Below, one piece after another: positions 663-63,157 of a stretch of DNA of 64,000 bases; position 1 is the first letter of the stretch; the number at the start of each line of letters is the position of its first letter. The notes beneath the pieces are model-generated. The model did no database searches. It was not told the origin of the DNA and saw only the letters and a program-made list of their open reading frames with translations. The stretch covers positions 29,264,001 through 29,328,000 of the forward strand of contig OZ024757.1 in NCBI GenBank assembly GCA_964016885.1, in the 5' to 3' direction. A program made the position numbers and the translations under genes. This DNA comes from Eledone cirrhosa (Eukaryota).

Positions 663-1244
663 AAGATCAGACACTTTTGCATTGACATTCGTGGGAGAAC
701 TCGTGCTTAGACCTGAATGAAGAGTACTACAAGAAAACCATAGAAAATCAACATTAAATGTAGTAGTGAGTATTAAAAAGTTAGAGGAGTGTGTATTATT
801 TTAAAATCGCATCCACCCACACATAAACCAGCACCACTACCACCATCATCGCCACCACATACATCGCCATCGCCATCACCATCACCACCCTATTCACAAC
901 CACATACACCACCAGCACCTCCACCATCATCATTAATTTCATTCTCCAAAAGAAACCATATTAAAGCATTTTCACTTACGTTAAAAAAAGAAACACACAC
1001 ACACACACAGACACAGAGGCGCATGTACATACGCACACACACATAGACACAGCCACACACCCACACACAGGTGCATACACACACAAGTGCATACACAGAC
1101 ACACACATACTCTCAGACATGCACATTCATGTCCCACACTCGTACACTCACATAAGTACGTAGGTTATTTCAACACGCAAACGTATGTGTATATGTATGT
1201 ATATATATATCTATGTATGTTTATATATATATATATATATATAT

Positions 1245-1447
1245 AGTTTTAATATAGATGAGATTCTACAAGACTAGAACTGTTTCATTCATTTGAAATC
1301 ATCAGGAATCTCTGATTCCTGATGATTTCAAATGAATGAAACAGTTCTAGTCCTGTAGAATCTCATCTATATTAAAACTGTTATACTCTGCTATGTATTG
1401 AGTACCTTACTTACTGTGGTTACCTCCGATTCAACCCGGAATAACGT
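1245..1447 (+). mobile_element. Family A fold-back element: 135-bp palindrome (1245-1379) plus unique tail; putative Penelope-like pLTR remnant
   Basis: 66-bp arms with 1 mismatch and apex TCT at 1311-1313; (TA)n on both sides; sister copies at 10285, 39403 and 62363. Confidence 0.85.
1314..1362 (+). ncRNA. Type I hammerhead ribozyme (mirror copy on minus strand at 1262-1310)
   Basis: gattc-CTGATGA-tttcaaatgaat-GAA-acag-ttctagtc-ctgt-A-gaatc. Helix I is 5 bp, helix III is ACAG/CUGU, triplet is GUA (predicted cut after 1357). Confidence 0.8.
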
Positions 1448-1699
1448 ATATATATATATATATATTTGTATGTATGTATGTTGGCATGTATGTATATATA
1501 TAGGTTGATGGATGTATGTACTACAATGTATGTATGTATGTATGTATGTATGTATGTATGTATATGGATATATGTATATATATATATATGAATGTGAATA
1601 TATGCTTCTATCAAAATAAGTATAAGTGTATGGTTATGTTGTGTCTGTATCTCTGCTTAATCGTGTGTGCATTTGTGTGTGGATGTATGCCTATTTTCT

Positions 1700-10284: not shown

Positions 10285-10453
10285 GATGCTTCTACAGGAC
10301 TAGAACTGTTTCATTCGATAGAAATCAATGATTCCTCTTGAATGAAGCAGTTCTAGTCCTATAGAAGCCTTTTCTATATTAAATATTTATACTCTGCTTT
10401 GTATTGAGTACCTTACTTACTGTGGTTACCCCTGATTGAACCCGGGATAAACT
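10285..10453 (+). mobile_element. Family A fold-back, degenerate (hammerhead core partly deleted)
   Basis: gcttctacaggactagaactgtttcattc ... gaatgaagcagttctagtcctatagaagc plus the family A tail. Confidence 0.8.
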
Positions 10454-39402: not shown

Positions 39403-39406
<4 letters not shown>

Positions 39407-39597
39407 TTAATATAGATGAGATTCTACAGGACTAGAACTGTTTCATTCTTTAGAAATCATCAGATTCCTGATGATTTCTAAAGAATGAAACAGTTCTAGT
39501 CCTGTAGAATCTCATCTATATTAAAACTTTTATACTCTGCTATGTATTGAGTACCTTACTTACTGTGGTTACCTCCGATTCAACCCGGAATAACGTA
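39403..39597 (+). mobile_element. Family A fold-back (126-bp palindrome 39403-39528 plus tail)
   Basis: Perfect 61-bp arms, apex ATTC at 39464-39467, (TA)n flanks. Confidence 0.88.
39462..39512 (+). ncRNA. Type I hammerhead ribozyme (family A)
   Basis: agattc-CTGATGA-tttctaaagaat-GAA-acag-ttctagtc-ctgt-A-gaatct. Confidence 0.8.
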
Positions 39598-62362: not shown

Positions 62363-62508
62363 GAAAAGCTTCTACTGCTATGTATTGAGTACTTTACTTC
62401 ATGTGGTTACACCCGATTGAACCCGAAATAACTTATATATATATATATATATATATAAGTTATTTCGGGTTCAATCGGGTGTAACCACATGAAGTAAAGT
62501 ACTCAATA
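62363..62508. mobile_element. Family A tail duplicated tail-to-tail across (TA)n (perfect 126-bp palindrome 62383-62508)
   Basis: tattgagtactttacttcatgtggttacacccgattgaacccgaaataact-(ta)n-exact reverse complement. Confidence 0.9.
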
Positions 62509-63157
62509 TATATATATACATATCCATCTTTCATGATGAAAAGAATGGAAAGTGCATCTCATACCAACACCGCCTCCACCACCACCAACAAAAACAACAC
62601 GACGATGAGTGACCAACACCAAAAGCACTAACGTCCACAACACACCACTACCACCACCATCACATCACCACGCCATCACCACAACCATCAACCACAGGAA
62701 CACGACGTTGACAGTGACCACCATCACTATCACCACCACCAACACCACTACCGACAACTACATATCACTACCACCACCACATCACCACCACAACAACCAT
62801 CATAACACCACCACCACCAACACCAACACCAACAACAACACGACGATGACCACAACCACCACCACCAACACAACCATCATCAACAAAAACACGACGTCGG
62901 CGAGGACAACTACCATCAACAACAACAACACGACGACCACCACCACTATCACCACCACCAACAACAACAACACCACCACCAACAGCAACAAAGCCAAACG
63001 TAATCTCAACTTCAGTACGACTAAAAACCTCTACTGATTCGTAACGACAACAACAACATCAACAAAAAATATCAACAACAACATTAAAACAATATTAGCA
63101 CAAGGACAACAACCATCAACATACAGTCACAACAACAACATCAACATCCTAACAACA

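What the first reader, a model, noticed from the sequence alone, without database searches (positions are those of the whole stretch)
1245..1447. Family A palindrome arms were copied from each other at each insertion
Seen: copy 1 (1245) has loop II tttcAAATgaat in both arms, while copy 2 (39403) has tttcTAAAgaat in both arms. The apices differ (ggaatc-tct-gattcc versus cag-attc-ctg), but both lie at the 5' strand of hammerhead helix I. The left arm stops at the same base (agttttaata..) in both copies and omits the ~68-bp tail. Inference: the inverted arm is made per insertion by fold-back or template-switch synthesis with a defined stop point, or is homogenised locally, rather than inherited as a transposon TIR. 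In copy 1 the result is a full ribozyme on both strands, and a read-through transcript would form a long dsRNA hairpin that should block ribozyme folding.
Basis: partly seen in the sequence, partly recalled or inferred. Interest (0 to 1): 0.75.

Follow-up and report, generated by a model that had tools for sequence, protein, structure and literature searches.

The report
Double-primed Penelope retroelement hairpin insertion
This hairpin is one of well over a thousand short back-to-back insertions of a Penelope-like jumping gene in TA repeats, a known layout, and its junctions indicate that both halves were likely copied outward from the two ends of one DNA cut, likely from one capped RNA, rather than from each other.

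Summary
The repeat is the end (pLTR) of a Hydra-like Penelope retroelement; head-to-head copies with a one-sided tail are known. Arms agree within loci genome-wide (1,552 concordant, 4 mixed), so the palindrome is made per insertion. Fold-back fails for many copies: the tail-less arm reaches further 5' in 35 of 100 loci, and 24 of 30 helix-I junctions have the orientation fold-back cannot make. Homogenisation fails: 45 one-arm variants, no private both-arm variant. The apex lies 30 nt below a TATA box, and arms ending at +1 carry an extra G (28 of 30; 9 of 10 clean), as expected at a capped start. In 7 of 7 informative spliced loci both arms are spliced. Best reading: both target strands prime reverse transcription at two internal sites (about +60/+67 and +135) of one RNA; the cDNAs run to the cap and are joined by microhomology. 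The fixed 'stop' is likely a start. Against: among long insertions the tailed arm is longer in 13 of 17; no RNA data. This scan reached the double-priming idea before on other DNA.

The parts
1222..1244 (.). (TA)n target, left flank of copy 1
1245..1311 (-). Tail-less arm of copy 1: unit +67 (1245) to +1 (1311), read on the minus strand; likely cDNA primed from the left target end
1262..1310 (-). Complete type I hammerhead sequence on the minus strand; one private C-to-T turns a helix III G-C pair into G-U
   Evidence: activity untested
1312..1313 (.). Apex: 1312 is the extra G 5' of +1 on the minus strand (genome has C there; likely cap-derived); 1313 is one untemplated base
1314..1447 (+). 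Tailed arm of copy 1: unit +2 to +135
1314..1362 (+). Type I hammerhead: helix I GATTC/GAATC, CTGATGA core 1319-1325, helix II with U-U closing mismatch, GAAA, helix III ACAG/CTGT, predicted cut between 1357 and 1358
   Evidence: compensatory GCTTC/GAAGC helix I in 4 arms of an older lineage; no Rfam hit at gathering score
1380..1447 (+). 68-nt tail; in long copies it runs on into the ORF leader, so its end is internal to the element RNA
1448..1465 (.). (AT)n target, right flank of copy 1
39403..39463 (-). Tail-less arm of copy 2: +67 to +7; lacks the 5' strand of helix I
39462..39596 (+). Tailed arm of copy 2: +1 to +135; overlaps the other arm by 2-3 nt of microhomology (CAG)
10290..10450 (+). 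Older, decayed head-to-head copy of a related lineage with the apex deleted

Best explanation
These palindromes are short head-to-head insertions of a Hydra-like Penelope retroelement in (TA)n, likely made when the element's enzyme cuts both DNA strands and uses both ends to prime reverse transcription on one RNA. One end likely primes near +60/+67 and the other near +135 (1-5 nt of TA-like pairing), so the tail is the gap between two start sites. Both cDNAs likely run to the RNA's capped 5' end, which maps 30 nt below a TATA box and coincides with the 5' strand of hammerhead helix I and with an intron's 3' splice site. The two cDNA 3' ends are then likely joined through 1-3 nt microhomology or short templated insertions. 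Shown: element identity, arm concordance, mirror-image junctions, extra G, TATA spacing, splice concordance. Inferred: double priming, one RNA molecule, cap origin of the G, order of events, joining enzyme.
For: Element: long copies carry a C-terminal GIY-YIG ORF upstream of the same end. Concordance: 1,512 T/T and 40 A/A short palindromes against 4 mixed, about 80 expected by free mixing (my arithmetic); none of the 4 is an A/B mix; the three loop types agree between arms in 95 of 96 loci. Mirror junctions in 100 loci: GAATC 12 / GATTC 10, GAATCTC 6 / GAGATTC 7, GAAT 5 / ATTC 9; tail-less arm further 5' in 35, tailed arm in 49, equal in 16. 24 of 30 helix-I junctions have the tail on the arm lacking the core. 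Tail-less arm longer by about 20 nt to 2 kb in L053, L067, L079, L081, L083, L085, L202. Extra G in 28 of 30 arms ending at +1, 9 of 10 where a spacer separates the arms; TATAAA at -30 in 15 of 28 upstream variants, at -28 to -37 in 6. Spliced junction: 16 exact matches in 14 loci against 10,768 matches to one core variant; partner arm also spliced in 7 of 7 informative loci. Both arms stop at the start or both run upstream in 57 of 58 pairs. In vitro a related PLE cuts and extends both strands and starts at two internal sites that bound its tail (PMC11167929).
Against: Among 21 long head-to-head pairs the tailed arm reaches further in 13, the tail-less arm in 4, 4 undecided (read by eye); fold-back could have made those 13, and 49 of the 100 short ones. 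None of 30 copies that hold the ORF leader begins at +1 with an extra G; most run on upstream, six begin between -6 and +10, so the capped start is seen only in short copies. For arms ending at +2 in clean junctions the next base is T in 13 and G in 7. About 18 arms could be read as running to -1 because the other arm supplies CAG. Samples were chosen by exact patterns, many with a gap of at most 9 nt, and favour young copies. A spliced master locus was not found (two long spliced copies are 5'-truncated) but is not excluded. An earlier scan note on another genome reports arms from different parents (e1-9539494, not tested).
Confidence: 0.72

Rival explanations
1. Fold-back: one cDNA primed at the tail end reaches the 5' end, folds on itself and copies itself to a fixed stop.
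For: Explains concordance. Tailed arm reaches further in 49 of 100 short and 13 of 17 decided long insertions. 6 of 30 helix-I junctions fit it.
Against: It requires the tail-less arm to lie wholly within the tailed arm; this fails in 35 of 100, 24 of 30 and L053, L067, L079, L081, L083, L085, L202. 5 loci have a loop-free GAATTC apex, and 4 (L016, L019, L024, L091) have the extra G on both arms. It may still account for a subset.
Confidence: 0.1
2. Double priming, but on two RNA molecules from the same source locus (for example one per subunit of a dimer).
For: Explains concordance of sequence variants and mirror junctions equally well; arms of long insertions often end at different places; one possible A/D mixed locus, L104.
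Against: Splice state agrees in 7 of 7 informative loci although spliced arms are about 1 in 1,000; both arms come from the same pLTR copy in 57 of 58 pairs; the 24:6 bias fits a leading and a trailing enzyme on one template.
Confidence: 0.13
3. The apex marks the intron's 3' splice site or an enzyme stall at helix I, not a transcription start; the extra G is an untemplated addition or recapping after cleavage.
For: The 3' splice site (CCCAG|ATTCC) is real and lies at +2/+3; intron end at helix I is also described in D. virilis Penelope (PMC4209133); no full-length copy begins at +1 with G in 30 seen.
Against: Arms keep the intron's last two bases (AG) and then carry G where the genome has C; TATAAA lies at -30 and survives in lineages about 72% identical. 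This rival changes only the reason for the apex, not the double priming.
Confidence: 0.15
4. Arms were homogenised after insertion (gene conversion or hairpin repair), or the palindrome is an inherited MITE with terminal inverted repeats.
For: Concordant arms; a few junction types recur in many loci.
Against: 45 variants in one arm only and none private to a locus in both arms over +7 to +54 in 96 loci; the only both-arm variant (A53T) recurs in three loci of one lineage. 43 distinct junctions in 100 loci, arm lengths from tens of bases to kilobases, and spliced forms.
Confidence: 0.02

Closest known systems
Hydra-clade Penelope-like elements (Craig et al. 2021, PMC8557442; passages and section 11 seen)
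   Same: C-terminal GIY-YIG, CxCX5C linker, DKT motif, CxxC and CxH around the conserved E and N, hammerhead, (TA)n target, inverted 5'-truncated copy, one-sided tail, partial tandems.
   Different: RWR in place of RWK; tail is 68-75 nt rather than 30-40; a 1.3-3 kb microsatellite-filled intron that holds the promoter; the paper leaves the origin of inverted structures open.
PAc (Poseidon, Anolis) in vitro system (Frangieh et al. 2024, PMC11167929; abstract and main text, part of methods seen; supplements not read)
   Same: Both strands cut and extended; two internal start sites bounding the tail; AT-rich target; uncleaved hammerhead RNA is the template.
   Different: Different clade; the main text does not link the two start sites to inverted copies ('inverted' occurs once, for a blocking group); here priming uses 1-5 nt of TA-like pairing, whereas PAc starts without homology.
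Adineta vaga Penelope inverted pLTRs (Arkhipova et al. 2013, PMC3846280; passages seen)
   Same: Head-to-head pLTRs, palindromic junction, tail on one arm, TATA/Inr in the pLTR.
   Different: That paper proposes self-priming on an antisense template; extra G at the sense start and spliced arms here point to a sense, capped template.
Drosophila virilis Penelope hammerhead (Cervera and de la Pena 2014, PMC4209133; passages seen)
   Same: Intron end maps to the 5' end of helix I, giving different ribozymes before and after splicing.
   Different: There the start lies upstream of a 75-bp intron (as cited in PMC8557442); here the likely start lies at the intron's last two bases.
LINE-1 twin priming
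   Same: Both target ends prime on one RNA; junction closed by microhomology.
   Different: L1 twin priming inverts non-overlapping parts; here both primers copy the same stretch, giving a duplication.

Membership tests
EN+ Penelope-like elements | Single ORF with RT and GIY-YIG endonuclease | tested here: met
   L084/L085 ORF shows RT motifs (LQLDI, MGAS, YRDDG) and IVY..YIG by eye; Pfam GIY-YIG only weak, E 0.022, below cut-off, no RT family hit
EN+ Penelope-like elements | pLTRs from partial tandems; inverted 5'-truncated copy; one-sided tail | tested here: met
EN+ Penelope-like elements | Retained spliceosomal intron | tested here: met
   GT..AG intron kept in most long copies, precisely removed in 14 loci
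Hydra clade | CxCX5C linker, DKT motif, CxxC and CxH motifs | tested here: met
   CNCLNKEAC, SSDKTK, CDLC, CMH (against section 11)
Hydra clade | RWK motif present, GxKF/Y not conserved, CCHH absent | tested here: inconclusive
   RWR and EKFGFK; two Cys lie in the GIY-YIG core but a second His was not seen
Hydra clade | Insertion in (TA)n; body under 3 kb | tested here: met
   about 2.4 kb from +1 to the splice donor
Hydra clade | Placement in the clade by RT phylogeny | not tested
   no reference Hydra proteins were fetched
Type I hammerhead ribozyme | CUGANGA and GAAA core, NUH site, three helices | tested here: met
   compensatory change in helix I; helix II opens with U-U; the minimum-energy fold is not the hammerhead; no Rfam hit
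Type I hammerhead ribozyme | Self-cleavage | not testable with these tools
   5' ends of long copies do not cluster at the cut site (1 of 30); the helix-I junction class (57 matches) can arise by microhomology alone
MITE / TIR DNA transposon | Fixed internal sequence between inherited terminal inverted repeats | tested here: not met
   43 junction types in 100 loci, unequal arms, spliced forms

The most novel reading that the evidence does not exclude
Penelope-like elements integrate by a duplicating twin-priming reaction: a dimer cuts both target strands and two reverse transcriptases copy the same capped RNA one behind the other from two fixed internal sites; the short palindromes are paired 'strong-stop' cDNAs joined at the cap, and the pLTR, the tail and the inverted copy all follow from this one reaction.
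Probability: 0.55. Interest if true: 0.72.

Novelty: new member of a known kind. Interest (0 to 1): 0.5.

Why it matters
How Penelope-like elements make their inverted copies and tails is named as an open question (PMC8557442). The 2024 in vitro work supplies the parts but does not connect them to the inverted copies. This family gives over a thousand young junctions that separate the models: mirror classes exclude fold-back as the general route, the extra G points to a capped sense template, and splice concordance points to one molecule. Each is directly testable in the existing in vitro assay. The layout itself is ordinary.

Tried and rejected
Rfam at gathering score: no hit. The repeat finder was swamped by microsatellites. 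A DNA search with copy 2 returned nothing, although a pattern found 10,768 matches. Sequencing runs: no RNA holder listed; laid contigs of four runs gave nothing on RNA ends or editing. I first called the element Neptune-like, then changed to Hydra-like after reading section 11 of PMC8557442. I expected full-length copies to begin at the hammerhead cut site; only 1 of 30 does. The far end of L033's longer arm was not found in the next 8 kb, so L033 is not counted. Target-site duplications cannot be read in (TA)n. No arm tree was built: the arms differ at too few sites, so direct counts were used. Paper searches for the double-priming explanation found no paper stating it; subscription papers and all supplements were not seen, and the supplements of PMC11167929 may bear on it. 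A sequence look-up in earlier scan findings gave nothing.

Full report
Observation. I number the unit from the A of AGATTCC (+1; window 1313 and 39462). The hammerhead core CTGATGA starts at +7, the predicted cut lies between +45 and +46, the tail-less arm ends at +67 and the tailed arm at +135. Both copies sit in (TA)n. The rest of the window is simple repeats and other mobile-element pieces; no host gene was evident among its ORFs by eye.

What it is. The window lies in a 3.0-Gb genome; the tailed arm has at least 40 identical copies and copy 2's core variant matches 10,768 times. [quoted passage not shown] The linker CNCLNKEAC, DKT, CDLC and CMH match the Hydra clade as described in PMC8557442 section 11; no phylogeny was run. 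The microsatellite stretch is a GT-AG intron: 16 exact matches in 14 loci carry the precise spliced junction. In copies that hold the ORF leader (116 matches, 30 read) the tail runs straight on into it, so the tail end is internal to the RNA. Head-to-head pLTRs with a tail on one arm are the described PLE layout (PMC8557442; PMC3846280; passages seen).

Made per insertion. With a gap of at most 9 nt there are 1,512 palindromes with T-class loops in both arms (this class pools several lineages), 40 with A-class loops in both, and 4 mixed; free mixing would give about 80. Of the 4, two are truncations, one is an older copy with point changes and one (L104) may be an A/D mix or a point mutation. 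From 114 script rows I kept 100 loci, dropping duplicate nested rows, older lineages and broken tails. They hold 43 junction types. In 96 of these loci three loop types agree between arms in 95; 45 variants sit in one arm only; the only both-arm variant recurs in three loci of one lineage. So neither an inherited TIR nor later homogenisation fits.

Not fold-back in general. A cDNA that starts at the tail and folds on itself can only give a tail-less arm contained in the tailed arm. The tail-less arm reaches further 5' in 35 of 100 loci, the tailed arm in 49, equal in 16, and the common junctions come as mirror pairs. Where a complete arm joins the other at +46 through helix I homology (57 matches, 30 read), 24 have the tail on the arm that lacks the core. 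L053, L067, L079, L081, L083, L085 and L202 have tail-less arms longer by about 20 nt to 2 kb. Against my reading, among 21 long pairs the tailed arm is longer in 13, the tail-less in 4, with 4 undecided (by eye); fold-back is not excluded for such copies.

The apex. Upstream of +1 lies TATAAA, at -30 in 15 of 28 distinct upstream variants, at -28 to -37 in 6, absent in 7 (two read TATATA at -30; the others are cut off by their own junction); CCAGATT fits the initiator consensus (recalled). Arms ending exactly at +1 carry G at -1 in 28 of 30, where the genome has C; in junctions with a spacer, 9 of 10. A G copied from the cap is known for other reverse transcriptases (recalled). Arms ending at +2 are followed by T in 13 and G in 7 clean cases. 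About 18 arms are ambiguous because the other arm supplies CAG. None of 30 copies with the ORF leader begins at +1 with G, which is unexplained; transfer of a strong-stop cDNA to the downstream pLTR would account for it but is untested. The same two bases (AG) end the intron and extend helix I; a like coincidence is described in D. virilis Penelope (PMC4209133).

One template. Spliced arms are about 1 in 1,000. In 7 loci where the partner arm can be read it is spliced too (L197/198, L199, L200/201, L202, L204, L208, L210; L202 rests on 3 nt); three lineages are represented; the other 7 loci were uninformative or had no partner in view. The two longest spliced copies are 5'-truncated. In loci not chosen by apex, both arms stop at the start in 36 pairs, both run into the intron in 20, both are spliced in 1, and 1 mixed pair appears to join two separate insertions; partners beyond the fetched flanks could have been missed.

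Mechanism. Shown in vitro for another PLE: both strands are cut and extended, and reverse transcription starts at two internal sites that bound the tail (PMC11167929). Inferred here: each target end primes on the same RNA, one at +60/+67 and one at +135 to +139, always at a U that can pair with the (TA)n primer; the downstream enzyme trails and displaces the first cDNA; both reach the cap; the 3' ends are joined by 1-3 nt microhomology or short inserts templated from nearby sequence (L006, L019), as polymerase theta leaves (recalled).

The hairpin RNA. A transcript through copy 1 would fold at -101 kcal/mol and preclude the ribozyme fold. The short palindromes lack the TATA box and are likely dead on arrival. 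One palindrome nested in the intron of a longer copy (L036) differs from copy 1 by 8 changes, all A-to-G on the host element's sense strand, spread over both arms and none in the unpaired tail: a likely fossil of A-to-I editing, a single case. No RNA data were available.

Novelty and verdict. A new member of a known kind. My paper searches found no statement of the double-priming explanation, within an open-access library and without supplements; the bioRxiv retrozyme preprint (10.64898/2026.07.22.740005, passages) does not treat it in what I saw. Earlier notes of this scan reached the same idea on retrozyme arrays, read after my analysis; they are not independent support. What this locus family adds is the cap signature, the mirror junctions and the splice concordance. 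Interest 0.5.

Noticed in passing
L036:4820-5020 (G000:C2 near 233,016,170): Nested short palindrome with 8 changes, all A-to-G on the host element's sense strand and confined to the paired part: likely fossil A-to-I editing.
   Followed up: partly
L085:6568-7847 and relatives: The intron that holds the TATA box is 1.3-3 kb of microsatellite and collects nested insertions (same family, other PLE families, RTE-type LINEs with long ORFs).
   Followed up: partly
L085:7832-7909 as reference, DNA runs X2-X4: A frequent joint from +63 back to -14 suggests head-to-tail arrays of a 77-nt hammerhead unit, possibly a retrozyme-like derivative.
   Followed up: no
L259 (+174), L252, L227, L215: Template jumps inside insertions; in L259 the ORF leader is joined to a unit that starts with the extra G and +1.
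   Followed up: no
L207, L245, L251, L255, L257: Arms whose 3' ends lie inside the ORF (+246 to about +1600) next to (TA)n: further internal priming sites.
   Followed up: no
window 62375-62512: Two tails of a related lineage face each other across one (TA)n tract, tail to tail.
   Followed up: no
window 24040, 24770, 57132 (+); 35707, 27098, 14140 (-): Further CTGANGA..GAAA motifs of other repeat families.
   Followed up: no
L032:1062-4574, L035:5683-7980: Neighbouring long ORFs of other Penelope-like families; L032's has an asparagine-rich insert like those described in Adineta.
   Followed up: no
L128, L130, L101, L023: An older lineage has helix I GCTTC/GAAGC and makes the same apex palindromes in both mirror forms.
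   Followed up: partly
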